A stretch of DNA of 64,000 nt from Geosiphon pyriformis uo1. Lineage: Eukaryota; Fungi; Glomeromycota. A program made the position numbers and the translations under genes. This document shows positions 1,900 to 57,800 of this stretch, piece by piece. The notes beneath the pieces were generated by a model. It was not told the DNA's origin and did no database searches. It worked only from the letters and a program-made list of their open reading frames with translations. Position 1 is the first letter of the stretch. Every line of letters starts with the position of its first letter. The DNA lies in assembly GCA_016748015.1 (NCBI GenBank), contig JAAOMT010000183.1:698787-762786 (forward strand), given 5' to 3'.

Positions 1900-2300
1900 A
1901 ATAAAACCCAAAAAAGCACATAAAATTGATACTGGATATGATCTAAGATATCTAGACAAGGATATTTTTGTTCTCAAACCCAAATCTCTCACAAAAATCA
2001 ACCTCAAAATTGCCTTCAAAATCCTGCCAGGAGCAATAATTTAAATTGCCTTCCAGTCTTCTCTGGCAAGCAAAGGAATCAATATCAGAGGAGGAATAAT
2101 CAATGCTGGATATACTGGTAACATAACAATAATACTCCAAAATGAAACTGATAAATCTTTCAGAATTGAACATGCTGAAAAAATTGCTCAAGCTATCTAT
2201 TTACCCTTAATCAACATTTCGGACTTACAGTTAGTCAACCAAAGAGAACAATTGGGAAAAAACAAAAAAGGAACACAAGGTTTTGGTTCAACTGGACGAT
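1900..2300 (+). pseudogene. dut: dUTPase domain of copy A
   Basis: DTGYDL, QSSLA, GIINAGYTG, KIAQAI, GTQGFGSTG correspond to dUTPase motifs 1-5; one in-frame stop. Confidence 0.9.
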
Positions 2301-5300: not shown

Positions 5301-5682
5301 GGAAAATTTGAAAATAAATGGGATGGATCATTCTTTATCCATGAAGTCCTAGGCAACGGATCATACAAGCTAAGACTTGATAACAAAATCCTAGCAAAAG
5401 TTGTATATGGAGATCATTTGAAATACTATAATTCCAGAAACAATCCCGAACCATTAATCTCACAAATTGGTACACATTTCTCTTTAATCAATCCTGAAGA
5501 TATTCTCTGAAATTTAGAACCAATAGTTGTCATTGAACAACCTTCCAACTTGAACACTTAATTTAAATTTATCATTATAGTTATCTTCTTATAATTTAGA
5601 AACAATCTCACAAAAACAAAACAAAAATAACATAAAAACCCATACACCAAAAATAATTTTCTTTTATTTCAAATCTCTTATA

Positions 5683-6336
5683 ATGACTATTCTTCAAAAC
5701 ATTCAACAATTATCCCAAAAATTAATGTTAGCTTTAAAAACAATACCTGAATTATCTATTACTGTTACTGAAAACCACATTAATTATACCCAAACAGAAG
5801 TAGTTACAAATTTAGTTCCAAATTCATGAAAATATCACCCATATAAGAAGAATACAAGAAGTTATTTTGGAATTCACCTGCCAGAACTTTTAAAGCTTGC
5901 TTTAAGAGAAAACTTAATGCTCACTCCTATTAGTATTCTACCAAATGCTACTATTCAACAAAAACTTCAACTGTGTCTTAACAAAGAAAACTATGACTAT
6001 ACTTCAATATATAGATATTTCTACATTAGAAAAACACTTCACGAACAAAAACGGGAGCTTATAGCAGCAAACCTCACAAAAAAAGCTATTCAGAAACAAC
6101 TCCACAACAAATTCAAGACAACAGCTAGACCTACAAACAGTCGTTATAAACTAAGAGCTGCTCTTAGACTTTATGATCTATTCCACACCTGTGAAAACGT
6201 TCTACAAAACCCAATTTTATAGTTTTTGAAGATTCAATACATTGGAAAGCTCACAGAACTGAAATTTCAACAATTTTCAAATCAAATTTCTTCAATAATT
6301 TTGGATTATTATCTGGAAATTACAGACAGTACTTAG
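5683..6336 (+). pseudogene. ORF3 accessory protein of copy A (two internal stops)
   Basis: ATG at 5683 in frame with ORF 5917-6222; similar to ORF3 of copies C, D and F. Confidence 0.75.
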
Positions 6337-6370
6337 ACTTTGATGGAGCTCAATCTTGAGGAGGAGGTTA

Positions 6371-7341
6371 TGTTACCAAACGAAATTAGAGATATTGTTT
6401 AGCATGAAATTATCTTTATAAATCTTATCATTAATTAGCATATATTATCATTCAAATTATCACTTATTACATTAGCAAAATGTCTGAAATTATCATTTAA
6501 TTAATAATTCAATTTGTACATAACACAAATGTAACCTAAGTATGATGATCAATCATGCAATACCCTGAAATATGTAACATTCAAAAGTTTGCCGAAATTT
6601 GTAGAAATTCACCGAAATAATTGAGAGTTTACTGAAATATCTAATAGTTTACAGAAATAACTTGTAGTTCGCCAAAATGTATCTTTAGTTTAGTGAAATT
6701 GTAGAAAAGAGCAAAGTTCAAGTTTATAGAATAGTGTTATAACAAATTGTATAAAAGAAGAGCTTCTCTCTTCAAAAAAATGTATCTTACTTTAAATTTA
6801 CTTCTGAGAACTGTTCCTATACACACAAAAAAAAATAAATATCAAATAATTCGAAAAACCAAATTTTTTAATTATTGCACTTGAAAAATCCTCAAAACCC
6901 AACTAACATTTTGAAATTGATTAGCTACCAATTTCAGTAAAACTGTTAGTGACTCCAGGCCTGAATAGAAAACGTTCCCCTTGACAGAATTCTATTTCTT
7001 TTACATTTCTTTTATTTTCTTTCTTTTATCTTCTTATTATAATCATTAGGGTAGCCTACAGACAAGATTCCTATAGAAGAGTTGACTTTCACAACAAAGT
7101 AACTATACATTTTAGTAAGCTTCCAGACAAGCAATTTTTGGGAAAGAGTTGACATTTACTACAATGTAACTACACAAAGCAACTGGCATGAAATTGGCCA
7201 TTTCACTTATAAGCCCATTATAGAAGATAATTTGAAAATAAATTCAGATATTGGAGGTTCAAACACTTCCCATAATTGTGAATTAACAGCATTACAATAA
7301 ACATACAAGAGCTAAAAAGAGACCAAAAACCTTCAGTAACA
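6371..7341 (+). repeat. 3' LTR of copy A (971 bp)
   Basis: TGTTAC/GTAACA termini directly after the PPT; homologous to the minus-strand LTR at 38199-39119. Confidence 0.9.
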
Positions 7342-10300: not shown

Positions 10301-11842
10301 GTACAATGAATACTAATTCAACCAGATAAGATTCCATGAAATCTGAAACCAATCATAATTATTGAACCAAACACATCAAATTAAACAACCAAAAAGAGTA
10401 TATAAAGACATAGTATATATAACAAAGACAACAAAAAAAATAAAAATACCAGATCATATTCATACCTTAGCTCAACAATTGTTTTAAGCCTTAAGTCAAC
10501 AACAATTAAACATGAAAATTGTCATCAACTACCAAACAATCTGTTATCAAAACACCAAACAAAAAAAAAAGTACACCATATTAACGACCACAAAAACAAT
10601 CAAGAAACTCTTCAAATAAAATAGTAAAGAAAGTAAAAAACACTTTTGAGAAAATACTCATCATAGTTCTAACAGAAAAACTTTCAAAAGATAATTGGAA
10701 ACAATAGACAAAACAACTTCCAATATTATACTACTACTATTAATTGGGACAAAAGTTAAACATTCAGAAATTATATCTTAATAAAGCCAAAAGAATATTC
10801 AATCAAGAAATAATACAGAATATTGAGAATATTATCAAAAAGAAAACAAATTTAATACTGCACATTAGAACAATCTATCAATTACACATGATATTTCAAA
10901 ATTACTCAGAAATATTGTTACATCCCAACATGGAGACAATTATTATAAACTGATGGGAAAGAATAAACAACATGTAAATCAAAGATATAAGAAACAAAAT
11001 TAAACAAACAGTATTAGAAAAAAAAGTATTAAACTTAATTCAAAATAAAGATTTTGACAAAGGTTAATATTAAAAAAAGGAGATAATATTATTCATAAAA
11101 AAAATATATAAAGAAAAATAGTAAGAAAACAGATAGACCAATAGAAAAGTAATAGTTAATACATGAGCACATTGTTCAAGAAATTATAACACATTGCTCG
11201 GAAATATAAATGATTTCATAAAACATAAATTATGTATATATAGCAAGAGTATTAAAAGCAGAAAAGACAGAATAATTATTCAGACCTTCTTATTACCCTA
11301 TCTTTATTAGAATTATCAATATCAATAAATAATTATTTATTATCTAAACCATTCTTCTTACTATTAATACTTTATGTTGATAGTATTAAATACTTAACTA
11401 TACTGGAACAATAACTCTTGATCATAACTATTGATGAGATACTAACATAATTGTTTTGGCCAATTTTTTTATTTTTTTTATTATTTTTCTTTACTGTAAT
11501 ATTTTATTGTTATATACTAGTTGATTAAAGATTAAATATTAATTTATTGACATTACAGATAGCTTGGTAAAAAACCCAAATAGAAGGATACAGAATAAGA
11601 ATTGGAATAGCTTACCAGAAGGGCACAACTCCCAAAATAAACTGACCACCAAACTAAAAAAAAAAATTAGGAAACTTATTACAAAAAAAATGCATACCAT
11701 TGAATCTCTGTTCATTATACAAAAGACTCAACCAAAACCTTCAGATTGTAAAAACTTCAGATGTTACTATTAATTACAGCTCTTGAACACCAAGTTATGA
11801 GTTTGTTATTTGATTTGAAACTCCAAATAATCACTTATAACA
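7342..11842 (+). mobile_element. Degenerate Ty3/gypsy copy B (F family): RT-RH-IN-ORF3-3' LTR (LTR about 11087-11842)
   Basis: Internal region colinear with F 45517-49290; many transition-derived stops; purine tract at 11072-11083. Confidence 0.9.
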
Positions 11843-12473: not shown

Positions 12474-13940
12474 ATAGTTTGGTATACTGTGTAATTTGAT
12501 CATTTTAATTTCTTATTGTATAAATTAAGTTATTAATTAAATAGCAATTTTTGATAATTTTTAATTAAATAATAAGTGATAATTTGAATGATAATAATAT
12601 ATTTTAATTAATAATAAGAATTATAAAATAATTTTATGCTAATTAATAACTAAAATTCTATTGATAACATAATTTTCTCTTTAAAATTAAGCTTTATTGA
12701 AGTCCAAATACTCTCTGTAATATTAAGATAATAATCTAAAATAATTGAAGTAATTTAGTCTGAAAATTGTTGAAATTTTTATTTTGTGAATTTGCCAATA
12801 TATTAAATCTTTATTGGTTGAAATATTGGATTTTGTAGAACATTTTCACAAATATTAAATAAATTATAGAGTTTAAAAACTGCTCTAAGTTTGTAATAAG
12901 TGTTTGTTGGTTCAACTGCTGTTTTAAATTTATTGTGAATTTGTTTTTGTATTATTTTAAGAATAAAATTGGTTGTTTCAAGTTCTAATTTTCGTTTATA
13001 AAGTGTTTTTTCAATATAAAAATATTTAAAAATAGGAGTATATTCATAGTTTTGTTTATTATTCTATAGTTAAAGCTTTTGTTGAATTGTGGTATTTGGT
13101 AAAATATTAATAGAAGCAAATAAAAAGTTTTTTTAAAGCTTGCTTCAAAAGTTTTGACAATTGAATTCTAGAAAAACTTCTTGTGTTTTTTTTATAAAAA
13201 TAATAATTCTGAAAATTATTTACTATTGGCATCATATTTTTTTTGAGTTTAATTAATTTGATTTCTATTAATTATTATAGATAAATTAAAGAGTGTTTTT
13301 AATACTATCATTAATTTTTAAGACATTTGTTAAATGTTTGTGTATTATTAAAAAAATATTATGATAATAGTAAATTAATTGTTCAAATTTGGTTGTTTTT
13401 TTATTATAATTATTGGTTTTAAATATCAAAAAATATCTTCAGGATTAATTAAAAAAAAATTTATATTAATTTGTAGAATTATTAGTTTAGAATTGTTTTT
13501 AAAATAATAGTGCTTTAATCAATCTTCATATGTAACTTTGGTTAAAATTTTGTTATTAAGTCTTAATTTATATAATTCATTGTTTAAGATTTCATAAATA
13601 TAAAATGATCTATCTTATTTATGTTCAAATTTTCTATTCTATTGTTTTTCAGTCTTAATTTTATGTAAAAAAACTTTGTTTTCAATTTTGAATTTATTGG
13701 TAATTGGCAGCAATTTGTTATGATGTTTTTTTTATTAAACTTAGAAGTGTTTAATATAAATAGCTGCTGTTTGTCTTTTTTTTCCAATATATTAAGCAGA
13801 ATATAGGCTCTTTATTAAAGTGTTTTTTAAAAGTTTTCTTTATTAATTGGCTGTATTAGATATGTTTTTGTTATGAAGTTAATTGGTAATATTACTGTTT
13901 TTTTATTGGTTAGATCAAAAAATATGTATTTTATAATATT
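12474..13940 (-). mobile_element. Highly decayed A-family gypsy remnant (IN C-terminus, ORF3, PPT, start of LTR at 12669)
   Basis: Reverse complement aligns with A at about 5000-6560. Confidence 0.8.
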
Positions 13941-14656: not shown

Positions 14657-15286
14657 TGTTACGGTTGAAACACATAGTTTTTATTAATTATCACATGTAT
14701 TAGCCACTGATGTCATATAATTAGCCACTCTATTTTTAGATAGTGATCATTAATCTGGTCATTGACCACTTTAGATAGCTATATAAGCAATGATTCCCTT
14801 AGCTGTAGAAAGATATGATCAAAGTAACAAAATAAACAATATCAATTACTTCCTCTCATAATCGCTTATTCTCCTTTCTTTATCTTCAAGTATCTACTTG
14901 TTGGCATTCACATAACTTATCTTTTCCCCTTCTTGATTTGTATTTGTTAGAATTAGCCTGAGAAGCAATTGGCTTGCTCTTGTAATTTATTGAATAAAGA
15001 AACGATTGAAAAGTACAATGATACCTGTTATTGATTCTAAGAATTGCCAAGTTGAGGCATAGAATAATAGCAGTGGTGTTATTTTGTTGACAATCATGGA
15101 CTATTCCTCTACCTTCAGATTTAAGAAAAGATTAGTGACTGTGATTTTTATGAGACTGATCACACACATTGAATTCCTACTTATTCAATTTGCTCCCTTA
15201 TTGTAATTCCTTCTTTGTTTATTTCTATCACTCTACAATACTGTTCTCCCTTGCTATCCATTAGCTTGTTACTCCAACCCGTAACA
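14657..15286 (+). repeat. 5' LTR of D (630 bp)
   Basis: TGTTAC...GTAACA; direct repeat of 21439-22116. Confidence 0.97.
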
Positions 15287-15292
15287 TAAAAG

Positions 15293-15309
15293 TGGTGCTC
15301 CCTGTGAGG
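15293..15309 (+). promoter_or_regulatory. Primer binding site, complementary to an elongator tRNA-Met-like 3' end
   Basis: TGGTGCTCCCTGTGAGG; its reverse complement is CCTCACAGGGAGCA-CCA. Confidence 0.75.
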
Positions 15310-15338: not shown

Positions 15339-16892
15339 ATGGGTAATTACTCATATCTGCCACAGTAATTAGAAGAACACTTTGTAGCATACAACAGAAA
15401 CGACCAAAGTTTTATTGAACTTAATCCTCTGCCCTTCTGCTTGATCTGCTTCCCCCTTGAAAAACAATCAAGTAGACAATTCCAAGACTTTTGGAACTGG
15501 TTCCTGAATGAGCATTCAGCTGAAACCTACACAGCTTATACAACCTATTACTTTGACCAAGCTTATTTTGAAAACGACTTTGAAGAAAGAAACAACAGTA
15601 TCAATCAGTTCTTATATTCTGCAACCTTTGAACAACAGCCCCCTGATTTCGAATATCTAAATCATCAAATCCACATTTGGATTGCTGCCCATCAAGCAAC
15701 TGAAACTCCCTTTGAAACAGAAGAAGAAAGCTACCAAACTGCCCCTGTTTTTGATCTTTTATCAAGCGAATCAGGTTCGTCTACACAAACAGTTACTCCT
15801 GAACCAATGGCTAATGACCCCATGCAAGCAAACATTCTGGCCACCCTCCAAGATATACAAACTGCTCTAGGGCGAAGAAACAACACCCCAATACCATTAT
15901 TTAGAGGTAATGCACAAGATCCAATTGAATAGTTGGATGACTTTGAAAGAGCCGCTACAGCCAATTAATATGATGATGAGTACAAGTTTCAAATTGTTGG
16001 TGACTACCTTCAAGGATCCCCTGCTACCTGGTTCTCACAAGAAACAGATACCAATGCCCAGCAAAAAATTGTTAGATGGACACCAGCAAATGTGGGAGAA
16101 ATCAACACTTCTTTCACTACCTGGTTTGAAAACAAGTTCAGAATCCCAATATTAATATTAAAATGGCATATGAAATTGGAAAGAAGAACCCAAGGTCCCA
16201 GTGAAATTGTAACCGAATATGTCAAAACAATCAAAAAGTTAATCAAACGAGTAGACACTGGAAGAAATTGGACAGAAGAGCAGAAAATTCACTCCTTCAC
16301 AAAAGGATTGAGAACTGATCTATCATATGCTCTTTGGCCCCTCCTGGCCCTGAAAGATAATTCCACCATGGATATGGCCATTGAATTAGCACAAAAAATT
16401 GAAGACAACCAAAAGATGCACTTGGGATCCACACTACTAGTTTTTGCTCCTGTTCCTGTTATGGCTCCTGCCCCTCAAATGGCTGCTACTTCTTTTGCCA
16501 CTCACATTCAAGATCCAAATGAACAGTTAATAGACAGACTCACAGCAAATCTTGCTCGGTTATTAGAACCCTTAGCCCAAGCAGTCAGAGAAAATCAGCA
16601 ACCACAAAGACCCAGATTTGAACCAAACTTCAATCAGCCCCAGCAACCACCTTATCAAAGACAACAAAATTGTGGCCCACCTGTATGCTATCACTGTGGA
16701 TTAACTGGACACTTTTCAAGAGATTGCAACAATCCTCCACTGCTTCCACCAGTCCCCAGAAACAATGATGCTCAGAATAACAGGATTAACAACAACAATG
16801 TGCCCAACCAAAGACCTAATCATGCCAACATCAATTTCTTTGGAGAGGATCCCCTAGTTGAAGCCACTGTTTATCAGCCTTTAAACTGGTAG
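15339..16892 (+). pseudogene. gag: gag of D (capsid plus CYHCGLTGHFSRDC zinc knuckle), a few nonsense changes
   Basis: ORFs at 15441 and 16092 share the frame of ATG 15339. Confidence 0.9.
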
Positions 16893-16917
16893 GCACACCT
16901 CCAAAGGGTGAGAGTGC
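16880..16917 (+). promoter_or_regulatory. -1 ribosomal frameshift signal (T TTA AAC plus downstream hairpin)
   Basis: Heptamer is in X XXY YYZ phase, gag stop follows two codons later, and the -1 frame is open into the PR ORF. Confidence 0.75.
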
Positions 16918-19369
16918 AAGCCAACTAAGAGAAAACCCCTTTTACACTTTTAACTTAACTAATGATGACCATGACATGGATGAATTAGCAATTAACCCCT
17001 CTGAATCCAAAAGAAAGAAGAAGAAAGCCAAAGTTGATTTCGTTCTAGACCCCAATAAAGCTTCTACATCAACTACTGACAACAATGAGCCCCCAAAAGC
17101 CAAAGTTTTCAAGAACCCTCCAAAGTTGGAACCCCCAGAAATAATACAAAAATCCGATCCCTATTCTGTTGTCAAAAACCTTATGGAAACCCCAGCACAT
17201 ATAACCTTTGGCCAATTGATGACCCATCCACAATTCAGAAAAGATCTTCGCAAATCCCTGATTCCAAAGAAAAAGACACCCAAAACCAACAAATGTCCTC
17301 GCCAAGCTGGACTTGCTGACAATAGCAATGTCACTCTTCTAATTTGTAAAGCCCAAGTGGCTGGCTACTTCATTGATTTGATCCTAGACAGTGGATCATC
17401 TGTTAGTGTTATTGCCAAACATTTTTTTGAAGCAATTGGCAGAAAAATTAATGAACCATCCACACGACCAATGACCAATGTGCATAGTGATAAGAAAAAA
17501 GGGCTTGGCATAACCAAAGCTATTCCTGTCTATATTAATGGCATCAGCATTAAAACTGATATGGAAGTGTCTGAAGCAAAAGAATACATCATCATTGTTG
17601 GCAATGAATGGCTCAAAAAAGCAAAGGCTTTGCTTGATTATGAACTCTGTGAACTAACCATCAGATGTGGTGAGAAACCCATTGTGGTTAAGTGTCACCA
17701 TTGAACAACTCCCCCAGTACCCAAGCAGAGTCCAGAAGAAAATGAATCAGATGAATCAGATGATGAAGAAAGTGAGGAAGAAGAAGAACAAGAAGAACAA
17801 GAAGAAACTGCTGAACTCACCTATACCATCTTCACTAGCAATGGCAAACCACTGGATAATGTCAAGGCAGATAAAGAAGGAATTATTGTCAATGGCAAGC
17901 TGATCTGCTGGCCTTATTATGACATGCTCAGAAGAACCTTTGACAGAAAGCCAGGCAAGAAAGCCAAATACAGTTATTGGTGGCATAGTCCTTGTGCCCG
18001 GTGCTAGTGCGACAAACCATTGTACTCTCCTAGCGATGAATGCATGTTCTGCCTGATTTATTACAAAGATTGGGAACCAATCAGCTTAATACCCCGAGAG
18101 GAAATAAAAGAAGTCCAAAAGTTCTTTGAAAACAAACCACCTGAAATCCAATTACTGGTTGTAAAACAAAGAGAATCCTCTCCAGAAGAATGAAAAGTAG
18201 ACATTGAAAACCTGCTGGCTAGAAACAACCCAGTTATCTCAAAAGAAGGTGAACCTCCTGGACGTACACATGTGATACAACACACCATCATCACCAGAGA
18301 AACTCGCCCCATTCATTTGAAGCCCTATCAATCTAACAGGCACAATGATGAGTTTATAAAAAAGGAAATAACCCGAATGAAAACCCTTGGATTCATACAG
18401 GAAACCAAGAGTGAATGGGCATTCCCAGTTGTAATAGTATCCAAGAAAGGAGGAACCCTACGCTTTTGTGTTGACTATTGCCAATTAAATGTCATTACTG
18501 AAAGAGACATATACCCACTTCCCAAGATTGATGCAATGCTAGACCAATTCTATGGTGCCACTTTCTTCTCAACCATTGACTTAACTGCTGGATTCTGGCA
18601 AGTAGAGATGGATCCAGAAAGCAAAAAGAAAACTGCCTTCATTACCAAGTATGGTACTTACGAATTTACAGTCATGCCTTTTGGTCTTACAAATGCTCCT
18701 TCCACATTTCAACGCTTAATGGACAAAGTATTTGAATCAGTAAAAAAAAACTTTGTTCTAGTCTACTTGGACGACATAATGGTATACTCAAAAACCTGGG
18801 ATAAACACCTTGAACATTTGCAAAAAGTTTTTGACCTCCTTAGAAATGCTGGTCTCAAGATCAATCCAATTAAATCATTCTTTGGACATCAATCCACTCA
18901 GTTCCTTGGCCATCTTATTACAAAAGATGGAATCTTCCTTGTTCCAGCCAAAATTGAAAAAGTTCAAAACATTAGACAACTAATAAATGTTTATAAACTA
19001 CGCTCTTTTCTTGGTTTGGTCTCTTATTATCGCAAGTTTGTCAAGGATTTCTCCAAAATCGCTGTTCCTCTCAATCAGCTACTTAGGAAAAACATCAATT
19101 ATTACTGGGGCACTCATCAACAAAAAGCATTTGAAATTCTGAAGGAAAAACTGGTTACAGAACCCATCCTCATGCAACCTAATTTGGATCAACCTTTTAT
19201 CCTCCATACTGATGCATCTGGCTATGGACTTGGTGCTGTTCTTTCCCAAAAAGATGAAGATAACAGAGAACACGCTGTAGCATATGCCAGTAGAACTCTC
19301 ACACCAGCAGAAAGGAACTACTCAGTTACTGAGCAGGAATGCTTAGCAGTAGTTTGGGCTACCAGCTAC
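16886..19369 (+). pseudogene. pol: pol of D: PR-RT-RNase H (runs into assembly gap)
   Basis: ILDSGSS, LRFCVDY, MPFGL, YLDD, TDASG, EQECLAVVW all in one frame. Confidence 0.93.
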
Positions 19370-19637: not shown

Positions 19638-20756
19638 AGAGAAATTGTGATCTACAATATGCACACTGATCCATTAGCTGGACACTTTGGAAAAACAAAA
19701 ACAATTCAGAAAACTTTAGCTTGCTATTATTGGCCTACCTTGGGAAAAGACATTGCTGAATACATCAAAACCTGTAATACCTGCCAAAGAAGAGGAAAAC
19801 CCAATTACAAGGAAGATATCCATCCAATTTCTGTTGGTCAACCATTTGATAGAATTGGTATAGATGTTGTTGGACCTTTAACAGTAACTCCTGATGGCAA
19901 CAGATACATTATCACAGCTACCGACTATCTTACAAAGTGGATAGAAATAAGAGCCACCCCAGATCAAACAGCAGTCTCAATTGCCAATTTTATTTATGAA
20001 GATATTATCTGTTGCTATGGCTGCCCCAAAGAACTTTTATCTGATAGAGGAAGAGCTTTTTTCAGTACACTGGTTGAAGAACTTTGCAGAAAAATGGGAA
20101 TACATCATAAACTCTCTTCCTCTTATCACCCCCAAACAAATAGTCTAGTGGAATGTTTTAATAGAACACTATGTAAAACCCTAGCCAAAACCAGTGAAGA
20201 AACCAACCTATGGGACAAAGTATTGCTTTCAGCCTTGTTTGCTTACAGAACTGTGAATCATGACATAACAAGTTATGAACCCTTTTATCTACTCTATGGA
20301 CAAATGGCAACTCTACCAATTGAAATGGATATAGAAACAATACCTTTTGAAGAAATAACAATAGGAAATTACAAGAACATTTTGCAAAGAAGACTTGGTA
20401 CCATTCTTGACTCATTAGTAGAAGCACGGATAATTGCCTTTGAAAAGATAAAACAGTTCCAAGAGAAACTCAAAAAGAAAAAGACCTATAAAACACTTTC
20501 CTTAAGTATTGGTGACTTAGTTTTGGAATACCGTTCAGACAGAGACAATGTCTATGGTGATAAATTCTCTAGCCGGTGGAAAGGACTCTTTATAGTCAAC
20601 AAAGTTTTGAACAATAGTTCTTATATCTTACAAGATCAATATGGAACAATATTCAGTGATCGCCCTGTTCATATTATGCAACTCAAAAAATATCACAAAC
20701 GACCTGATTGGTTATCTGTTATGATAATACCAACCCAAATGATCAGCAAAAATTAG
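19638..20756 (+). CDS. Integrase of D (HHCC, DDE core, GPY/F-like C-terminus); N-terminus lies in the gap
   Basis: MHTDPLAGH..CNTC, GIDVVGP, SDRG, YHPQTN..VE. Confidence 0.92.
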   Translation, partial: REIVIYNMHTDPLAGHFGKTKTIQKTLACYYWPTLGKDIAEYIKTCNTCQRRGKPNYKEDIHPISVGQPFDRIGIDVVGPLTVTPDGNRYIITATDYLTKWIEIRATPDQTAVSIANFIYEDIICCYGCPKELLSDRGRAFFSTLVEELCRKMGIHHKLSSSYHPQTNSLVECFNRTLCKTLAKTSEETNLWDKVLLSALFAYRTVNHDITSYEPFYLLYGQMATLPIEMDIETIPFEEITIGNYKNILQRRLGTILDSLVEARIIAFEKIKQFQEKLKKKKTYKTLSLSIGDLVLEYRSDRDNVYGDKFSSRWKGLFIVNKVLNNSSYILQDQYGTIFSDRPVHIMQLKKYHKRPDWLSVMIIPTQMISKN

Positions 20757-21469
20757 ATATAAATAAATACACTATTCCCAAAACAGAGGTATTTTCAATC
20801 GACATAAACAATTATTTCCTGGATCAAAACATTCAAAACATTCAAAACATTTTCTATACTCTCCATAAGTACTGGATCAAGAACTATCCAAATGCTACTC
20901 TGACTATTGGAAAACAAACCACTATAACAGACAACAATGAAACTCACACTGTTATTAGACCAAAGAAAACAACTACCAGAAGAGAAAAAATTGGTGGCAA
21001 AATGGATAAATACCTGCTGGAAAGCATAACAACAGTAATACTTTCACCTTCCAGCACAATTGGAAAAACAATACAAAAAATCTTGCCCATAGACAAAAAC
21101 TTGTCATATAGAAGACAACTAGAACTCTATGGTTGTCTTGGTGAAATCATAGAAGACATGAAGCTCATGAAGAAAACAACTTCAGAGATACAAGTGGAAA
21201 TTTTGGGCATTATACGTTTAGATGTTCCAAGAGTTTTGACTATTGCAAAAAGAGCCAGAACTCTTATACAAAAATTTGGTCTCTTGGATACAAAGCTTAT
21301 TTTGCCTCAAGTACTATATACTCTATCCACAAAAGACTTCAACAAACTAGTTAGTTTTGAGTTAGACAAAACTCTTTACATAGACTATCCTATAAATAGT
21401 TTGATTTTGCTGGAGCTCAACCTCTTTGAAGAGGATGATGTTATGGTTGAAACACATAGTTTTTATTAA
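20708..21469 (+). CDS. ORF3 accessory protein of D; open frame that reads into the 3' LTR; start codon uncertain
   Basis: 253-codon open frame between IN and LTR, similar to ORF3 of A and F. Confidence 0.75.
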   Translation: MVICYDNTNPNDQQKLDINKYTIPKTEVFSIDINNYFLDQNIQNIQNIFYTLHKYWIKNYPNATLTIGKQTTITDNNETHTVIRPKKTTTRREKIGGKMDKYLLESITTVILSPSSTIGKTIQKILPIDKNLSYRRQLELYGCLGEIIEDMKLMKKTTSEIQVEILGIIRLDVPRVLTIAKRARTLIQKFGLLDTKLILPQVLYTLSTKDFNKLVSFELDKTLYIDYPINSLILLELNLFEEDDVMVETHSFY

Positions 21470-22116
21470 TTATCACATGTATTAGCCACTGATGTTATAT
21501 AATTAGCCACCCTATTTTTAGATAGTGATTGTTGACCTGATCAATGACCTGACCATTGACTTGATCATTGACCTGATCATTGACCTGGTCATTGACCATT
21601 TTAGATAGCTATATAAGCAATGATTCTCTTAGCTGTAGAAAGACATGATCAAAGTAATAAAATAAACAATATCAATTACTTCCTCTCATAATCGCTTATT
21701 CCCCTTTCCTTATCTTCAAGTATCTACTTGTTGGCATTCACATACCTTATCTTTTTCTCTTCTTGATTTGTATTTGTTAGAATTAGCCTGAGAAGCAATT
21801 GGCTTGCTCTTGTAATTTATTGAATAAAGAAACGATTGAAAAGTACAATGATACCTGTTATTGATTCTAAGAATCACCAAGTTGAGGCATAGAATAATAG
21901 CAGTGGTGTTATCTTGTTGACAATCACGGATTATTCCTCTATCTTCAGATTTAAGAAAAGATTAGCGACTATGATTTTTATGAGACTGATCATGCACATT
22001 GAATTCCTACTTATTCAATTTGCTCCCTTATTGTAATTCCTTCTTTGTTTATTTCCATCACCCTACAATACTGTTCTCCTTTACTATCCGTTAGCTTGTT
22101 ACTCCAACTCGTAACA
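21439..22116 (+). repeat. 3' LTR of D (678 bp) with an expanded 12-bp array
   Basis: Direct repeat of the 5' LTR plus 48 bp of ATTGACCTGATC-type units at about 21525-21598. Confidence 0.97.
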
Positions 22117-22307
22117 TTATTATTAATTTTAAATTAATTTTTTTAAAATTTAATTAACAAAGTTATTTAAAAAAAACTCTTTCCTTTGTCCAAAATTCCC
22201 AAAAAAGAGTCAAAAGTTTTTTCAATAGAAGTTTTTTTATCATTTAGTATGATAAATCAAAACTGTTCTTCGATTATGAGACTACTATTGGCTCTGTTAT
22301 TGCTGTT

Positions 22308-24106
22308 ATGAAGAAGACTATTATAGTTTCTGGTTTTAAGAATGGTTTCAAGGCGGTTGTGTTGAGAAAAAAGAGGAAGGGAGATGTATTGGCAGAGGGT
22401 ATTGATAATAGAAAGATTGCTGCTGAAGCTCTTGGTGCTCGTTTATGGAGTTCTAAGACAGGTGACACTACTGAGTCTGAAAGTATTGACATGGAGGAGG
22501 AGTGCTTGGTTGAAGAAACCAGTATTGATTATGGTGAGAGTGGTGCTTTTGTGGAAGAAGATCCTAATCAGATGCCAAAGGGTTTATGTGTAAAGACCAA
22601 AAAAGTGTTAAAGAAGCCTCTAGGTATAATTGATTATAGTACTGTCAATACAGATGATGACGTGTTAGATAATTTTTCTCTTCTTCCACCCCTTCTACCT
22701 ATCAAACCGACAGTTCAAGTGTCTGTTCGCAAATCCTTTGCTTTAGATATTGATCTTGTGATCATCACTGGGAAGTTTTTTCAGGAAAAATTGAGTTTTA
22801 TTAGGAAAATTTTTTTAGGTGTAAATGGTTTTGGGGGGCTTCTACTTTCTCAAAATTTGGTGAAATTATTTGTGCAACTTTCACTTCAGAAAAGGCAATA
22901 ATGGCTGCTGGGAAATTGGCAAATGATCATGGTATTGTGGTAAACACCAATCTCAAGCATTCTTTGAACAACTGTATAGATTGGGCAATTGTGATGAAAG
23001 AAATTTCTATGGAAACTTCTGTGGAGGCTGTGCATGCTGCTGTGTCTGAGTTTGGATTGATTAAGTCAATCAAGATGCAACTTATGGGTTTGTGGCAAAA
23101 AGCGATCGTCGAATTAGAAGATCAGAATCAGGCTGATCTTTTGGCATCCAAATAGTCTATTCTTATTGAGAAGAATGCAGTACGTGTGGCCAGGGCCGAT
23201 GTTAACAAACAGACATGGAATTCCAGGAACAAATTCAGAGTGCTGCTATACACTCTTTTTGTAAAAACAAATGCTCATGACTTTTGGAATTTTGTTGGTT
23301 CAGTTGGTGGAAAAACATGTGTTATTGATTGTAATCCTGTTAGCTACACCCATACTTGCTGTGCTACTGTTTGCTTTGGGTCTGAATCTAATCTGGTTAG
23401 TGCGATGGCTACCACTCCAGTTATAAAGGAGATTGGCCTTCACTGGTTCCACCCTACTTTGGCACTGTGCTCAGTCTGCAGTCTTTCTGGTCATACATCT
23501 CTCAATTGTGTTTTGGTTAAGATTGGTTCAATCCTGAGAGGCAGAAAGACACCTCTTTCTACTCAGAATTAGGTCAGATTGGTAACTATCTATGCTCAGA
23601 AATCCGCACCCATTTCTCATCTATTGGTCTTCAGTGGTAAGACTTGGGCATCAGTTGTTGGTGCTCCTCTGGTGTGCAATTCTCATGGTGCTGATTTACT
23701 TCTTGGGTCTGACAATGTTGGTAAACCTCTCCCTTTTGCTGCAGATGATTTGGAAAAATGTTTGGTTTGCATTGAAAGCAGTCTTGTCAGCCTCATGGGA
23801 CAAATTGGTGAGTTGGTTAAGAGATTAGAATTATTCGTGCCAGCAGTTTCTCAGCCTAGCCCTGGATGTCAGCTGCCAGTAACACCCTCATCACAGAATC
23901 AAGGGGAGGATATAGTAATGGGAATGGGTTTGGGTGATGCTACTAGTGACAAGACTGCTGCCATTCTGGGTTCAACTGCCTCACCTGAAGTTGTGAAATT
24001 GGAAAACATGTTGGAAGGTTTTTTTGCTTTGGTTATGATCTTTTCAGCATGCTTGGATGGTTTGGCTTTGGCAGATGGTGCTCTTCCTCTATCTCTTTCT
24101 CAATGA
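22308..24106 (+). pseudogene. LINE ORF1 (RRM-like region plus CSVCSLSGHTSLNC knuckle)
   Basis: ORF fragments at 22308, 22901, 23186, 23579; one frameshift near 22830. Confidence 0.85.
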
Positions 24107-27100: not shown

Positions 27101-28791
27101 CAAATGTGGTTTGTATTTTTTCTGGATGTGATTTGTCTCTGGATGGCTCTCTGGCCAGTGCTTTTCATCTTTGGAGTGGTACTTCTATGTCTCTAGTTCT
27201 TGGCAAGGCAATTTTCTTCAAATGTGTCTCTTTCCTCAGGCATTATGGTATAGCTTTTGTAGAACAGCTTTGTGACCAGAATAGCATTGTTTTTGATTGG
27301 AAGACTTTCAAGTATTAGAAAAGACTGGACTCCCGTGGCTTAGTTCCCTTCTGGTTTGATTTTTCTGTACATTTTCTTGGTGGTGTGGCTTCTCCTTCTG
27401 GTCATTTTCTACATGAGGGTGTTTGTGGCTTTTTTGACATCTGTCAGTCTCTTGGTTTTGGTGTTATTTGTAATGATCTGTTGAATGTTAGTGCCACCTG
27501 CCTCTCTGTGTACACAGATGGGTCTCTGAGTAACTTGGGCACTGTTGACATGTTGGCTGGTACTGCAATTTTCTTTAAGGACATTGATTCAGGTCTGGGT
27601 GTGGGGGTTTTTGGTTTGGTTTCTTCTACTTTGGTGGAGTTGCAGGCTATTGCTTTAGCTCTTAAGTGTGTTCTTTCTTTTCATTCAGTTGACTTGTTCT
27701 TGGACAGCCAGGTGGCTTTAGATGCTTGTAGGTCGGAGTCTTTATCGGTTGGCCCTGATTTCAGAAATCATTGTTGGATTGAGCATCATCACATTGCCAA
27801 TGTCATTTGTCACAAAAATTTGGATGTTAATTGAATTAAGGTTAAGAGCCATTCGGGTGTTTTAGGCAATGAGTGGGCTGATGCACTTGCTAAGAATACT
27901 GCCCTTTCTGCCTGACACCTGCCCCACTTGGTCAATGAGAGGTTTTTAAAGACTGGTGTTGATACGGTTTCTGGTAATTTGAAGCATTTTGTTTGTGACA
28001 TATTCAGGTCTATCAATCGTGTGCATTGGGAGATTGGTTCTGGTTCTTGGGTTGTTTCAGGTTGTCTGTGTGCTGATATTGACTAGTTGAGATTTTCTTT
28101 GGTGTGGCACCCAGATTTCCACATGATGACTGGTTTTACTAATATTCGGACAGTTGGCTTTCGTACATATTTTATAAAAGCCCTTTATCATTGTCTTCTT
28201 GTTGCTGTGCAAAAACATCTGTATAATAGGGGTTATTCCAGTGTAGTTTGTTTGTTTTGTGGCGAGATTGAAGTCTTAGACCATGTCTTTTCTTGCTCTT
28301 CTGATGTTGATAGTCATGCCGGTTTGTTGGACACTTATGCAGCTGCCTGGGAAGTGCATTCTGGTCTGTCTCATTCTTCTTTGTGTGTGTTATAGTTGTT
28401 GTCGACTTGTATTTTGGATGTGACTGTCAGTATAGCCCTGTGTAAGAGCTTTGTTTTCGGCAATTGGTATTGCGAGTCTGTTTCTGTTTACAAAGATCTT
28501 AAGGTGGCAGTGATCAATGTTGTGAATTTTATACATGAGTTTTGTTTTGCATTTCATAATAATATCTGGCTGGTCCATGTGAAATACTGGGCCATTATAA
28601 AAAAAAATAAGCTGATTCCATGTGATGATTTTATTCCTGTCACTGTTTCTGGTTTTTTTACGTGGTTTTTAGCTGGGGTGATTAGGTTGTTGGATGTTGC
28701 TAATGCATTTGGCATCAGTTTTGGGTATCATAAACATTTTTTGTTTTATGCAGGTGTTGGTGACATGGCTTCTGTTCATATAAGTGCATAG
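24103..28791 (+). pseudogene. LINE ORF2: APE endonuclease, RT, RNase H, C-terminal zinc finger
   Basis: IATCNVHG, GGDFN, TNHKAV; PIALIE, QDMRKAYNSV, AFVDDT; YTDGS, ELQAI, SHSG..GNEWADALA; CLFC..H..C; all fragments in one frame. Confidence 0.93.
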
Positions 28792-38198: not shown

Positions 38199-39800
38199 TA
38201 TTATTGAAAATTTTTAGTTTCTTTTCTTGAATGTTGTTAATATTTGTTTGTTGTAAATTTACATTTTTTAAAAGTTAATGAATCTCTAATAACTGAATTT
38301 ATCTTTAAATTATCTCCTATAATTTATATTGCTGAACTTATAAATGAAATAGCTAATTCTATACCAGTTATTTTGTATAGTTACATTGTAGTAAATATTA
38401 ACTTTTTTCTAGGAATTGCTTGTCTAAAAGCTCACTAAAATATATAGTTACTTTGCTTTAAAAGTCAACTTTTCTACAAAAATTTTGTTTGTAGACTACT
38501 CTAATGTTTATAATAAAAAAAATAAAAAAAAATAAAAAAAATATAAAAGAAAATAGAATTTTATTAAAAAAATCGTTTTTCTATTTAGGCCTAGAGTTAC
38601 TAACAAATTTATTGAAATTGATAGCTAATCAATTTCAAAATATTAGTTGGATTTTAGAGAATTATCAAGTATAATAATCAAAGATTAAGTTTTCAAGTAT
38701 TTATTTTTATTGATTTGTAGAGATATGTAAAAGAATAATTGCTTCTAACTACAATATCTAAAATAAAAGATGCATTTTCTTAAAGAAAAAAGCTTTTTTT
38801 TATACAACTTGTTATAGTACTAGTTTATGAACTTGAACTTTTTTCTTTGCTATAATTTTAATAAACTAAAAATACATTTTAGCAAACTACAAGTTATTTT
38901 GATTAATTATTAACTATTTTGAAGAATTATTCATTATTTTAGCAAATTTCTACAAATTTTGGTAATAATACAAATGGGATTATTAATTAAATAGTAATTT
39001 TTGATAATTTGATTAAATAATAAGTAATAATTTGAAACAATATTAATATATGCTAATTAATAATAGGAATTATAAGAGTAATTTTATGCTAGTTAATAGC
39101 TAAAATTCTACTGGTAACATAATCTCTTTCTTAAGACTGAGTTCTATTAAAATTCAAGTATTATCTGTTATATTGAGATAGTAATCCAAAATAATTGTGG
39201 TAATTTGGTCTAAAAATTGTTGAAATTTCAGTTCTGTGAGTTTGCCAATATATTAAATCTTTGTTAATTGTAGTATTGGATTTTGTAAAACATTTTCACA
39301 AATGTTGAACAAGTTATAGAGTCTAAGTGTTGTTTTAAGTTTATAATAAATGTTTGTTAGTCCAGCTGTTGTTTTGAATTTATTGTAAATTTGTTTTTGT
39401 ATTGTTTTAGGAGTAAGAGTTGTTGCTTTAAGTTCCAGTTTTCATTTATAAAATGTTTTTTCAATATAAAAATATTTATAAATAAGAGTATATTTATTGT
39501 TTTGTTTATTGAAAAATAGTAGAAGTTTTTGTAAAGTTGTAGTATTTGGTAAAATATCAATAAGAACAATTAAAAAGTTTTCTTTTAAAGCTTGCTTCAA
39601 AAGTTTTGGTAATTGACTTCCAGAATAACTTTTTGTTTTTCTTTTATAAAGGTAATACTTTTGTAAATTAAGTACTATTGGTGTTGTAGTTTTTTTTTGA
39701 ATGTAATTAATTTGACTTTCATTAATTGTTATGAATAAGCCAGAAAGTGTTTTTAATGCTAACATTAATTTTTGGAATATTTGCTGAATATTTTAAGGAA

Positions 39801-39846
39801 TAATTATAATAAACAGTGACTAATTATAATAAACAGTGACTAATTA
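39801..39846. repeat. 20-bp tandem duplication
   Basis: TAATTATAATAAACAGTGAC twice. Confidence 0.9.
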
Positions 39847-39916: not shown

Positions 39917-40748
39917 TATTACTCATAGAATATAGAAAATATAGTATTATTAGTCAGTAGATATTAGCCAATCAGATGTAGACATAGTAATTGTAGAATT
40001 CCAAAATTCTTCTCAGAGGAATTGTAAGATTCCAGGAATTTCAGGATTCTCCGACAAGGAATCATAGGATTCCAGAATTCCAGAATTCCAAGATTCCTGT
40101 CGCAAGGAATCGAGGAATTGAGGAATCTCAAATATGTATATATAGCAGTAGCATTAAAAGCAGAAAAGACAAAATTAACACCAAGAATTCTTAGCTTAGT
40201 TACCACAATTCTCAAATAAATAATTATTCTTTATCTTAAATCAACTATTCACTATCAACACTTTATGTTGATAGTAATTGATACTTAACTACACTGGAAC
40301 AATAGCTCTTGATCACAGCTATTGATGGAATACTAACTTGCAAAATTGCCTTGGCTTATTTCCTTATATTTCTTTATTTTCTTTATGTTTCTTGATTTTG
40401 TTATTTGTGCACTAACCAATTGATTTAAAGTGCTGATTATTGATGTCAAGGATTATCTGGTAAAAGACCCCTGTGAGTGAGTAGAACATGTACAGAAGAT
40501 ACAGATTACTTACCAGAGGATTGCCAGCCACCAAGCTGAGAAAAAAATTGACAGACTTGTGAATCTGAGAAGCTATGGATAAAAACAACTATTAAATCTC
40601 TGTTCATTATACAAAAAACTCAACCCAAAACCTTCAGATATCAAAACCTTCAGATTACCAATACCAACACCAACAGAAATTAATCACTTTTGAGCACCGA
40701 GTTATGGGTTTAGTATTCACTCAACACCCCAAAAAAACATTTGTAACA
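39917..40748 (+). repeat. 5' LTR of F (832 bp) with CCAAT box, GAATTCC-type array and TATA
   Basis: Direct repeat of 49290-49934 plus about 187 extra bp. Confidence 0.95.
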
Positions 40749-47148: not shown

Positions 47149-47210
47149 GAATATTTCAACCCAAAAATATAACAAAACCAGAACAATATCAACAAGAAAT
47201 ATAACAAAAG

Positions 47211-48616: not shown

Positions 48617-49276
48617 ATGGTTGACGTGACAGAAGAGATCAGAGAAATGGAAATTACAGACAATATTTATTCACTAGCCCAACAAATTTTTCAATTAATC
48701 CAACACCAGGGGATAGAAATTACAATCAATCAACAAACCATCCATTACAAAAATACAGCAAAAATACCACAAAACAAAGCACAAAAAAAACTTGAAAATG
48801 TTGTTGACAAGATCATGACCAAGATAAAATTGGCCATGAAAGAACAACAAATAGTCGGATTATACCAAGAACTTACCAGAGAAACTTGGACTTGGTGGAC
48901 ACAACAATTTCCAAAAAACTATTGTCATTTTCACTTGGGATAACACGTAAATATCCAGAATTTGTACATCAACAAAACAAAATGGTTATTTGACACAACA
49001 ATACTAAGACAACTGGAACAATTTGTGACAAAAAACAATCTAACCACACAAGCTCGAGCCATTTACCAGCTATATATGGGATTTTAAGACTGACCAGAAA
49101 TCTTATTCAACACAGCAATGGATACAGTTATGAGTAATTAATTGGGAAAAATGACCAATACTCAATTTGAAGAACTACAAACTAAAATAACACAAGTAAT
49201 ACTCGAAAAAAAAGTTCAAAAAATAATTCAAGAAAGAAAATTAAAGGAATTAGATTTTGATGGAGCTCAATATTAA
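48617..49276 (+). pseudogene. ORF3 accessory protein of F
   Basis: One frame from ATG 48617 to TAA 49276 with four internal stops of transition type. Confidence 0.75.
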
Positions 49277-54832: not shown

Positions 54833-57800
54833 TGTTACAGGTGATTATTTGGGGTGTTAATACAAATAACAAACCCATAACTTGGTGTTTAATAGTTAGT
54901 ACAGTTGGTATTATCTAAAGATTTTTATAATCTGAAGATTTTGATTAAGTTTTTTGTATAATGGACAGAAATTCAATGTTAAGATTCTGTTGTAATGTTT
55001 TTAGTTTCTTTTCCAACTTATGAGTTAATATGTATTGTTGTTTATAGCTTCCCAGAATATCTATTTTATTAATTTTTTTCTTAGCTTAATAACTGGTTTT
55101 CTGGTAAGTTATTCCTTAGTTCTAAGTGTCTATTCTTATTTCTGGGTCTTTTACCAGTTTTATTCCTGATGTTAATACTTTAGTACTTTAATTTTTAATC
55201 AATTAATAAATAAAACAAAAAAGAAATAAAAGAAAATAAAGAGATAAACCAAGACAAGAAAGAGTTAGTATCTCATTAATAGCTGTAATCAAGAGCTATT
55301 TGTCTAGTGTAGTTAAGTATTGACAATTATCAACATGAATTGTTGATAGTGAAAAGACAGATTGCAATATTAAATAAGTATTTTATTAATATTTGATGTT
55401 TTCACTTTAAGTCATAGAATATTATCATATAAAAAGATGAATTTGAAATAGAAACTAGAGATTCTAAACTAAGAATTTTTTTTTTTGCTTCTAATATTAC
55501 TACTATATATATAAATTTTATTGTATAAAATTTCTTAAATTTCTTAATTCTTTAGCCAGAAATTCTGTAATTCTTTAAGAGAGATTTTGGAATTCTGAAA
55601 TCCTGCAATTTTTCATACAGAAATTCTGTAATTCTGGAATCCTGCAATTCTTCTAAGAAGAATCCTGGAATTCCACTTTTATTATGTCTATTCTGATTGG
55701 CTAATTTATGTACTAATATATAATTCTTATATTTTATGAATAATATTATTCTCTCTTTTTAATATTAAGCTCTATTGAGATCTTCTATATTTCTTAACTT
55801 TCCATCTTTAATTAACTCTTAAACTTCTTTTTTGAAAATTACTTGGGTTATTTTGATCTGTAATTTTTCAAATTGGACATTGGTAATTTTACCCAATTGG
55901 TTAATGGTAATTGTATTCATTGCTAGATTAAGTAATATTGTTGGTCAATCTTGAAATTCTATATATAGCTAATATATGGCTTGTGTTTGTGTAAACAAAT
56001 TGTTCTTCTCCATAAATTGTTTAAGTTGTTATAGTATTGTTGTATTGAATAATTGTTTTGTTTTATCAGTGTACAAGTTTTGAATATTCAAGTTTTGTCC
56101 TAAGTAATAATAACAAAAGTTTTTTAGAAATTGTTGTATCCACTAATTTCAAGTTTTTTTTATTAATTTTTGGTAAAGTACAGCTGTTTCTGGTATTTCT
56201 ATTGACAATTTTACTTTTGTTATTATTTTGTTTATAGTGTTTTCTAGTTTTCTATGCACTTTGTATTGGGTTTTTTTATTATTATTTTTGTATCAAATAG
56301 TTTGTTGGTTAATTGTGATTTCTATGTTTTGTTGTTGAATTAGTTGGAATAGTTGTTGTGTAAATAAGTAGATATTGTTGATAATTTTTATCTTTTATTG
56401 TTGCTTTTGTTGTGTATACTGTGTTTTTATATATTATTCTGTTTAATTAATTTAACATGTTTGTATTGATAATTATAATTGGTTTTAGATCTTATGAAAT
56501 CTTATCTGGTTGGACTAATATTTATTGTACTCCCAGTTGTGGAATATTACTGGTAAATGATGATGCTGTATTGTTATATGGTTTCAATTAATCTTTATGT
56601 ATTGCTTTAGCTAAGATTTTGTTGTCTTATCTTAATTTATAAGCTCTATTTCTTAGAATTTTTTCTATATAAAATGATCTATTCTATTTGAGATCAAATT
56701 TTCTATTCTATTGTTTTTCCATTTTGGTACAATGTAAGAATACTTTGTCTCCAATTCTAAATTCAACTGGTTTATTTGATAATTGGTTATCATGTCATTT
56801 TTTTTGTTTTTTTTGTAACTTTTGAATATTATTAATTGTTTTTTGTCTTTTGTTTTTTAATTTTTCTATTAAGTTATATGTTTTTCTTAACAATGTTTCT
56901 TGAAAGTTGTCTTCTCTTATTGGTTCAGTTGAATATGTATTGACTTTTATCTTAACTGGTAATATTGCTGTTCTACTATAAACAAGTTCAAATTATGTTG
57001 CTTATGTGGTATCTTGCTTTATTGTTTGATAAGCAAATAGTACTAATAGTATAAACAGATCTTATTTATTCTGGTTTTTTTGACTAATTTTGGTGATTGC
57101 TTTACACAATATTTTGTTGAACCTTTCAACTAAACTGTTTGTTTGTGGATAATATGATAATAATAATGGTCTTTTGATTTCAAATCTTTGGCTTAATTCT
57201 GTTAATGTTCTGTTTACAAAGTAAGTTTCTTGATCTGATAACAATTTTTTTGGACATTCATATCAGCAAATCAAATTTTAATAAACAAATTTGGCTATGA
57301 ATTCTATATTTGTTTTTTGAATTGCTTTTATTTCTGGCCATTTTGTGAGATAGCTCATGACTACTACTATATAATGATTGCCTCTGCTGATTATTGTTAA
57401 TAATTTAACTAAGTCAATTCCAATTCTATTAAATAGTTGTTTCACTTTAATTGGTCTTAATGGTTCACTGGATTTTGTTTCTTCTCTTTTCTAATAAACA
57501 TCACAATTTTGAATGTATTAGATAATGTCTGAATATATTGATGACCAATAATATTTTTTTCTGGTTTTTTCTATAATTGCTTCTTTATAAAAATATCCTA
57601 TTGTTGGATTTGAATGCATTTTGTATAATATTTTTTCATTCTTTAGTTCTGTAATTACTCTGAATGATTGATCTGAATCTTTTCTGTTTTCTAATATAGT
57701 ATATTTTAGTAAATAATAAAATATTTTAATTGTTGTTTTATGTTGTTTTGTTTCTTTTGAGATAATTTTTTTTTGAACTGCTGAGTATTAGTATAGTATT

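What the first reader, a model, noticed from the sequence alone, without database searches (positions are those of the whole stretch)
20708..21469. Conserved non-Env ORF3 between integrase and PPT in three divergent gypsy families
ORFs of about 215-250 codons sit at the env position in A (5683-6336), D (open frame) and F (48617-49276), with decayed versions in B, C, G and the 12.7-13.3 kb remnant. By eye they share an N-terminal pattern (NIQQLSQKL..LSITV / NIYSLAQQIF..IEITI / NIQNIFYTL..ATLTI). They also share a basic helical C-terminus (RAALRLYDLF..IGKLTELKFQQF / RAIYQLYMGF..LGKMTNTQFEEL / AKRARTLIQKF..LYTLSTKDFNKL). No signal peptide or TM helix is visible, so it is not Env. Inference: a soluble nucleic-acid-binding accessory factor, for example a transactivator, targeting factor or anti-silencing protein.
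Basis: partly seen in the sequence, partly recalled or inferred. Interest (0 to 1): 0.8.

Follow-up and report, generated by a model that had tools for sequence, protein, structure and literature searches.

The report
Third gene in fungal Gypsy retrotransposons
Several Gypsy jumping-gene families of a fungus carry a small extra gene after their integrase that has been kept by selection and lacks the membrane anchor of an envelope protein; its predicted helical product matched no known protein in our searches and likely works in the nucleus to switch the element on, which is untested.

Summary
ORF3 is real. All seven window copies that keep the 3' end carry it between integrase and the polypurine tract. 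All 329 listed relatives from three searches are labelled Geosiphon pyriformis. D's gene is 20804-21469 (start decayed to ATA), not 20708. Families A and F are homologous (HHalign 82%, E 1e-5), and both match an intact metagenome protein at the same place in another element. D joins them only weakly (shuffle p 1e-4 to 8e-3 to that protein; HHalign negative). Between subfamilies, transversions concentrate at third codon positions (p 1e-4 to 5e-3; LTR control flat), so A and F lineages were under purifying selection; D was not testable. It is not Env: no transmembrane stretch, 0-3 cysteines. The confident model (pLDDT 83) is a small alpha-beta-beta unit plus a helical core with no significant match (best Z 5.1). 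Six of nine lineages keep a PY-NLS-like linker motif, and LTRs hold family-specific arrays upstream of a TATA-like box. Best guess: a nuclear activator or anti-silencing factor for its own LTR (0.4); no binding or expression evidence. The scan noted similar ORF3s before on other DNA. Verdict: new protein family, known kind of accessory ORF.

The parts
20804..21469 (+). ORF3 of element D (221 codons here, 218 aa in relatives; start codon decayed to ATA; 9-nt duplication; runs over the PPT into the 3' LTR)
14657..15287 (+). 5' LTR of D (lacks 48 bp of the U3 array)
15293..15309 (+). PBS-like site of D (TGG start, similar to F's)
   Evidence: tRNA not identified
15339..16892 (+). gag of D, broken by stops (Retrotrans_gag, zf-CCHC)
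16862..19369 (+). protease-RT-RNase H of D in the -1 frame relative to gag, broken by stops; no dUTPase seen; its end is not readable
19638..20756 (+). integrase of D (H2C2, rve), in another frame than RT; its start is not readable
21428..21438 (+). polypurine tract of D, inside ORF3
21439..22116 (+). 3' LTR of D (88.5% to the 5' LTR by blastn)
21532..21597 (+). 12-bp tandem array (5.5 copies, TGATCA palindromes) upstream of a TATA-like box in D's LTR
5683..6402 (+). ORF3 of element A (239 codons, 3 internal stops)
6614..6669 (+). 20-bp array in A's 3' LTR
10443..11073 (+). ORF3 of element B (frameshift and stops; about 35% to F)
12650..13330 (-). ORF3 of the remnant, A family
39100..39807 (-). 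ORF3 of element C, A family (62% to A)
48617..49276 (+). ORF3 of element F (4 internal stops)
55759..56421 (-). ORF3 of element G, F family (55% to F)
55559..55673 (-). 39-bp GAATTC-bearing array in G's 3' LTR, between an ATTAGCCAATCAG box and a TATA-like box
39995..40088 (+). 40-bp array in F's 5' LTR (absent from F's 3' LTR)

Best explanation
ORF3 is a selected third gene of these fungal Ty3/Gypsy elements, and its small, predicted helical and soluble product likely enters the nucleus and likely acts on the element's own LTR as an activator or anti-silencing factor. Shown: position, conservation, purifying selection in the A and F lineages, no membrane anchor, presence in an element outside the Geosiphon assembly records. 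Predicted: an alpha-beta-beta unit (residues 7-38), a flexible basic linker, and a helical core (about 80-220). Inferred: expression from its own ATG by an internal promoter, splicing or reinitiation; nuclear import through the linker's PY-NLS-like or basic motif; binding of the helical core to the family-specific arrays upstream of the TATA-like box; protein and array diverging together, which would explain why ORF3 changes faster than RT and integrase. The copies in this window are dead, mostly through C>T/G>A decay.
For: Homology A-F: HHalign 82%, E 1e-5, 184 columns; shuffle p 5e-7, and 2e-11 / 3e-12 to metagenome protein P0373. L001 has RT-RH, IN, this ORF and an LTR-like tail in the same order. 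Selection: transversions at codon positions 1/2/3 are 14/13/35 (A-C), 15/16/39 (A-remnant), 14/14/31 (F-G), 40/26/54 (F-B), p 1e-4 to 5e-3, against 24/21/20 in the LTR control; dN/dS 0.21-0.26 against 0.15-0.31 for RT and IN. No 19-residue hydropathy above 1.33 in 15 of 15 members. Model pLDDT 82.9. R/K/H-x2-5-PY in the linker of 6 of 9 lineages and 55 of 100 A members with the N-terminus; 2-9% per sequence by chance; the linker is the low-confidence segment 41-50. ORF3 identity between families 18-24% against RT 48-57% and IN 43-58%. Family-specific arrays in the LTRs of D, A, F and G. CpG observed/expected about 0.2 in D, F and L001, as expected under methylation; TE methylation and small RNAs are reported for a related fungus (10.1101/2021.03.30.436303, passages).
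Against: D does not match by profile (HHalign probability under 1%) and lacks the PY motif, as does F. The unmutated members P0373 and P0374 are net acidic. Best structural matches to DNA-binding helical domains (CHD1 C-terminal Z 4.3, rmsd 3.2, 82 aligned; Spo0J Z 4.3, rmsd 5.2, 92 aligned) tie with unrelated bundles. The PY rule asks for a disordered stretch of 30 residues or more (PMC2408616, passages); the linker here is about 15. Arrays are missing from F's 3' LTR and B's LTR and shortened in D's 5' LTR, and LTR arrays are commonly bound by host factors (own knowledge). Non-coding controls also give dN/dS under 1 (0.22-0.88), so only the transversion test carries weight; the close pair C-remnant shows no third-position excess (8/12/11).
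Confidence: 0.4

Rival explanations
1. ORF3 is an RNA-side regulator: a Rev/CERV-like export factor for genomic RNA, or a factor that helps ribosomes reach the downstream ORFs of an RNA on which integrase and ORF3 are separate genes.
For: RNase H ends at a stop and integrase begins separately in A, B, F, G, H and L001, so downstream ORFs need special expression. The yeast PY-NLS cargoes named in PMC2408616 are mRNA-binding proteins (passages). CERV is a precedent at the env position (PMC10309623, abstract and passages).
Against: No RNA-binding family above cut-off (one sub-threshold hit, E 0.035, for an F fragment); no Arg-rich motif or C4 finger; a helper of host ribosomes would be expected to diverge less.
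Confidence: 0.25
2. ORF3 is a partner of integrase or Gag: a targeting, nuclear-import or particle-trafficking adaptor, for example for movement through multinucleate hyphae.
For: It lies directly behind a stand-alone integrase (spacers of about 23-316 nt) and has an import-like motif; no chromodomain was found on D's integrase.
Against: It diverges much faster than integrase; no interaction evidence.
Confidence: 0.2
3. ORF3 is a suppressor of host RNA silencing or another host-defence antagonist that works by protein contact.
For: Fast divergence with purifying selection; AM fungi make TE-derived small RNAs (10.1101/2021.03.30.436303, passages).
Against: Wide pI range; no match to a described suppressor in Pfam above cut-off.
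Confidence: 0.1
4. D's ORF3 is an unrelated gene captured separately; only A, F and their kin form one family.
For: HHalign negative in 3 of 3 tool comparisons and 4 of 4 local runs; D has 12-24% identity to the others and a long branch; D lacks dUTPase and is the most distant in RT and IN.
Against: Six of six D copies score above shuffles against P0373 with D's PPT-derived tail and P0373's removed (0-8 of 1000; p 1e-4 to 8e-3), 23 real decoys reach at most 52 against 79-109; colinear over about 190 residues; same position and length.
Confidence: 0.3

Closest known systems
[quoted passage not shown]
   Same: Same position and orientation, kept in most copies of a family, function unknown.
   Different: The plant sense ORFs reviewed are Env-like, some with transmembrane domains; this one has none, is fungal, and runs over the PPT into the LTR.
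CERV of C. elegans Cer1 (PMC10309623; abstract and passages)
   Same: Non-Env ORF at the env position of an LTR element, fast-evolving, no outside homologs, candidate nuclear signal.
   Different: CERV is 517 aa from a spliced 5-exon mRNA sharing gag exons, with a possible C4 finger; ORF3 is 220-240 aa with its own ATG and 0-3 cysteines; homology not tested directly.
VANC anti-silencing proteins of Arabidopsis VANDAL transposons (PMC5735166; abstract)
   Same: Working model only: element-encoded protein diverging together with tandem-repeat targets.
   Different: VANDAL is a plant DNA transposon (recalled); VANC binding and demethylation are shown there, nothing comparable here; no similarity found.
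ORF3 types of bdelloid rotifer LTR elements: Env, GDSL esterase, DEDDy exonuclease (PMC5408684; abstract)
   Same: Third ORF in LTR elements, several with dUTPase.
   Different: The model has two short strands only and no Pfam enzyme hit.
Fungal Gypsy elements with dUTPase or an 'additional ORF of unknown function' (PMC2864245; passages)
   Same: Fungal Ty3/Gypsy with dUTPase and extra ORFs are on record.
   Different: The passages seen concern chromoviruses and do not describe this protein; its supplement was not read.

Membership tests
Ty3/Gypsy LTR retrotransposon (host element) | Two LTRs, PBS and PPT | tested here: met
   D and F LTR pairs 88.5% and 92%; TGG site and PPT
Ty3/Gypsy LTR retrotransposon (host element) | gag, then PR-RT-RH-IN order | tested here: met
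   Pfam hits in this order in D; L001 RT-RH then IN
Env / Env-like ORF3 | Transmembrane anchor | tested here: not met
   Highest 19-residue Kyte-Doolittle mean 0.06-1.33 in 15 of 15 members
Env / Env-like ORF3 | Signal peptide and cysteine-rich ectodomain | tested here: not met
   No hydrophobic N-terminal stretch by hydropathy, 0-3 Cys; no dedicated signal-peptide predictor was run
DEDDy exonuclease or GDSL esterase ORF3 | Alpha/beta enzyme core with a central sheet | tested here: not met
   Model of pLDDT 83 has only strands 25-29 and 34-38; no such Pfam hit
VANC-type anti-silencing system | Family-specific tandem arrays in non-coding DNA of the element | tested here: met
   Different arrays in D, A and F/G LTRs; absent from some LTR copies
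VANC-type anti-silencing system | Sequence-specific binding and loss of methylation in trans | not testable with these tools
   Needs binding and methylation assays
CERV/Rev-type export factor | Made from a spliced mRNA, nuclear, needed for genomic RNA export | not testable with these tools
   No RNA run on record was listed
Helix-turn-helix DNA-binding proteins | Structural match to an HTH domain | tested here: inconclusive
   Spo0J Z 4.3 (rmsd 5.2, 92 aligned), KorB Z 3.4 (4.4, 92), ParB Z 3.3 (3.1, 59), tied with unrelated rows
PY-NLS cargo | R/K/H-x2-5-PY with basic residues upstream | tested here: met
   6 of 9 lineages; not F, not D; P0371 unclear
PY-NLS cargo | Disordered segment of 30 residues or more | tested here: inconclusive
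   Linker about 39-53, pLDDT under 50 at 41-50 only
The A/F ORF3 family defined here (for D) | Significant sequence or profile similarity | tested here: inconclusive
   Pairwise p 1e-4 to 8e-3 and BLASTP E 0.002 to P0373; HHalign negative

The most novel reading that the evidence does not exclude
A lineage of fungal Gypsy elements encodes its own sequence-specific LTR activator or anti-silencing protein with an undescribed fold, co-evolving with family-specific LTR arrays, as part of a complex-retrovirus-like layout with separate integrase and ORF3 genes; this could help explain how LTR elements came to fill about 41% of the Geosiphon genome despite methylation.
Probability: 0.25. Interest if true: 0.8.

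Novelty: new variant of a known kind. Interest (0 to 1): 0.5.

Why it matters
Accessory genes of LTR elements are mostly of unknown function, and our paper searches showed none described for this fungal group. An intact member (P0373) with a confident model and candidate target arrays makes the function testable. If it is a self-activator or anti-silencing factor it would be a fungal retrotransposon counterpart of VANC or of retroviral activators, in a genome reported as 41.2% LTR (PMC11952901, passages). Practical point: several hundred G. pyriformis 'hypothetical proteins' are decayed ORF3 copies or gene-model chimeras with them, not host genes.

Tried and rejected
No whole genome is held for this window, so D could not be tested for selection on DNA. 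Pfam on D and on 22 diverse members: nothing above cut-off. PDB sequence search with profile A6: 0 hits at E 10. Foldseek against PDB and viral models: 0 matches at E 0.001; VIA-align best Z 4.7 of 48,161 chains and 5.1 of 985; absence does not show a new fold, and the N-terminal unit was barely tested. First model (P0138, 15 sequences) was poor, pLDDT 47. Homodimer prediction of P0373: no answer, no evidence either way. ESM Atlas gave no result in any try. Sequencing runs: no RNA holder listed; the one run laid, probably DNA, gave short contigs of related copies and no joints. Viral contigs: 58 pattern matches, 0 relatives of P0374. A recalled resemblance to ORFs of Rhizophagus or Gigaspora elements was not confirmed: the A+F profile returned 114 proteins from 1.84 billion, and of 20 divergent ones looked up 18 were G. 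pyriformis and 2 unnamed metagenome proteins. Rejected: C-terminal tail similarity as homology evidence (it is PPT DNA); weak F-profile hits near 44.5 kb and 60.2-60.6 kb (caused by chimeric P0332 in that profile); raw dN/dS as proof (controls also under 1).

Full report
Setting. The window is a nest of decayed Ty3/Gypsy elements plus a LINE. No genome is held. All listed hits of the three protein searches are labelled Geosiphon pyriformis: 120 listed of 121 for D, 120 of 198 for A, 89 of 89 for F. The window is therefore taken to be from this fungus or a close relative (inference). A survey reports 41.2% of that genome as LTR sequence (PMC11952901, passages).

Observation. The frame 20708-21469 is open; chance for 221 codons is 3e-8. 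Relatives place the start at 20804: 61 of 120 begin MNNY or MSNY and 20 of 120 are 218 aa, while the window reads ATA. A's gene is 239 codons, 5683-6402, with 3 internal stops; F's has 4. Family profiles find B, the remnant, C and G at the same place. Element H and two small fragments do not keep this region. In D and A the frame runs over the polypurine tract into the LTR; the similar C-terminal tails are that DNA read through and were set aside. Decay is mostly C>T/G>A: 325 of 475 amino-acid changes among 21 D proteins are reachable by one such change, against 11% expected.

One family? A against F: HHalign 82%, E 1e-5, 184 columns; shuffle p 5e-7. A profile of 15 A and F proteins against 1.84 billion representatives gave 114 hits. 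Of 20 divergent hits looked up, 18 are further G. pyriformis subfamilies and 2 are unnamed metagenome proteins, P0373 and P0374; the other new hits were mostly 58-100% identical to A or F members and were not looked up. P0373 is 26-30% identical to A and F and links both (p about 1e-11). Its contig L001 reads RT-RNase H, integrase, ORF3, LTR-like DNA, so gene and position occur outside the Geosiphon records; the host is unknown. D is the weak case. HHalign finds nothing and the A6 profile gives D at most 6.1 bits against a shuffle 99th percentile of 5.3. But six of six D copies beat shuffles against P0373 (0-8 of 1000, p 1e-4 to 8e-3), 23 real decoys score at most 52 against 79-109, BLASTP gives E 0.002, and the alignment is colinear. 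Against the other four targets D was weak or null. I put D's membership at about 0.7.

Selection. Between subfamilies dN/dS is 0.21-0.26 for ORF3 and 0.15-0.31 for RT and integrase, but non-coding controls give 0.22-0.88 because of transition bias. The cleaner test is where transversions fall: 14/13/35, 15/16/39, 14/14/31 and 40/26/54 at codon positions 1/2/3 (p 1e-4 to 5e-3), against 24/21/20 in the LTR control; the close pair C-remnant is flat (8/12/11), as expected for post-insertion decay. These pairs share copies, so they are not four independent tests. ORF3 was thus constrained while A and F lineages were active, less than RT. D has one copy here and could not be tested.

Protein. No transmembrane stretch and 0-3 cysteines in 15 of 15 members; pI 5.4-9.6: not Env, and not uniformly basic. 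No Pfam family above cut-off. The P0373 model (22-sequence alignment; pLDDT 82.9, pTM 0.66) has helix 7-21, strands 25-29 and 34-38, a loose linker, and helices from 54 to 220. Invariant residues in a diverse set are G142, N145, A152, F160, L167 and I195, around a turn between helices 126-141 and 146-160. Fold searches give no significant match; the top rows include CHD1's C-terminal domain and Spo0J (both Z 4.3) among unrelated bundles. The linker carries R/K/H-x2-5-PY in 6 of 9 lineages (both metagenome proteins, both A subfamilies, B-like, P0347), in 55 of 100 A members that keep the N-terminus, and in window copy B; F and D lack it, D has a KRER cluster. This fits the PY-NLS motif but the linker is shorter than the 30 disordered residues in the rule (PMC2408616, passages). 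The lineages are related, so this shows retention, not independent origin.

Surroundings. ORF3 has its own ATG about 23-316 nt behind integrase. Integrase itself starts after a stop at the end of RNase H in A, B, F, G, H and L001; in D the junction is not readable but the frames differ. Just behind ORF3, LTRs carry family-specific arrays upstream of a TATA-like box: 12-bp units in D, 39-40-bp units in F and G, 20-bp units in A; they are unstable, missing in F's 3' LTR and B, and 48 bp shorter in D's 5' LTR. ORF3 is 18-24% identical between A, F and D, RT 48-57%, integrase 43-58%.

Mechanism. Shown: a selected, soluble-looking third gene. Inferred: it is nuclear, and most likely acts on its own LTR as activator or anti-silencing factor (0.4), in the manner of VANC, whose targets are tandem repeats that differ between related elements (PMC5735166, abstract). 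Rivals: RNA export or translation helper like CERV (0.25; PMC10309623, abstract and passages), partner of integrase or Gag (0.2), silencing suppressor (0.1). No call shows binding, localisation or expression.

Known or new. [quoted passage not shown] Searches showed no description of this protein or of an ORF3 in these fungi; the library lacks most subscription papers, the Geosiphon genome papers were not read, and no supplements or TE libraries were seen, any of which may annotate the ORF. The scan noted similar non-Env ORF3s and split integrases before on other DNA; sequence look-ups found no look-alike, so I cannot say they are the same family. Verdict: real, new protein family within a known kind, function open; interest 0.5.

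Noticed in passing
window about 4050-4200 (A), 8930-9030 (B), 47100-47250 (F), 57900-57800 (G), 52450-52350 (H); L001 772-800: RNase H ends at a stop and integrase begins as a separate ORF (own ATG in L001 and F; two in-frame stops between them in A, B, G). The scan has noted this layout before.
   Followed up: partly
window 21428-21469, 6340-6402; L001 3090-3148: ORF3 overlaps the polypurine tract and ends inside the 3' LTR; a motif upstream of the PPT (GGAGCTCAA-like) is shared by A, D, F and L001 and read in different frames.
   Followed up: partly
window 16862-16892: gag and pol of D overlap in the -1 frame, a possible ribosomal frameshift site.
   Followed up: no
window 2045-2527, 44470-45243, 54037-54585: dUTPase domains upstream of RT in A, F and H; none seen in D.
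   Followed up: no
window 22248-27834: Decayed LINE-like element (endonuclease-like ORF, RT, RNase H) right after D.
   Followed up: no
window 30219-31346: 375-codon open frame, low complexity, with a sub-threshold chromodomain hit at its start (E 5e-4); possibly a host gene exon.
   Followed up: no
window 14657-15287 vs 21439-22116; 40115-40748 vs 49301-49934: LTR pairs differ almost only by transitions (29 of 30 in D, 42 of 51 in F) in all cytosine contexts, not only CpG: a RIP-like or non-CpG-methylation decay pattern.
   Followed up: partly
window 5650-5682; L001 2430-2455: Pyrimidine-rich tract directly before ORF3's ATG in A and L001; could be a core promoter or a decayed splice acceptor.
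   Followed up: no
proteins P0004, P0104, P0108, P0120, P0332, P0348: Many public G. pyriformis gene models are chimeras of ORF3 with integrase tails or neighbouring repeats.
   Followed up: partly
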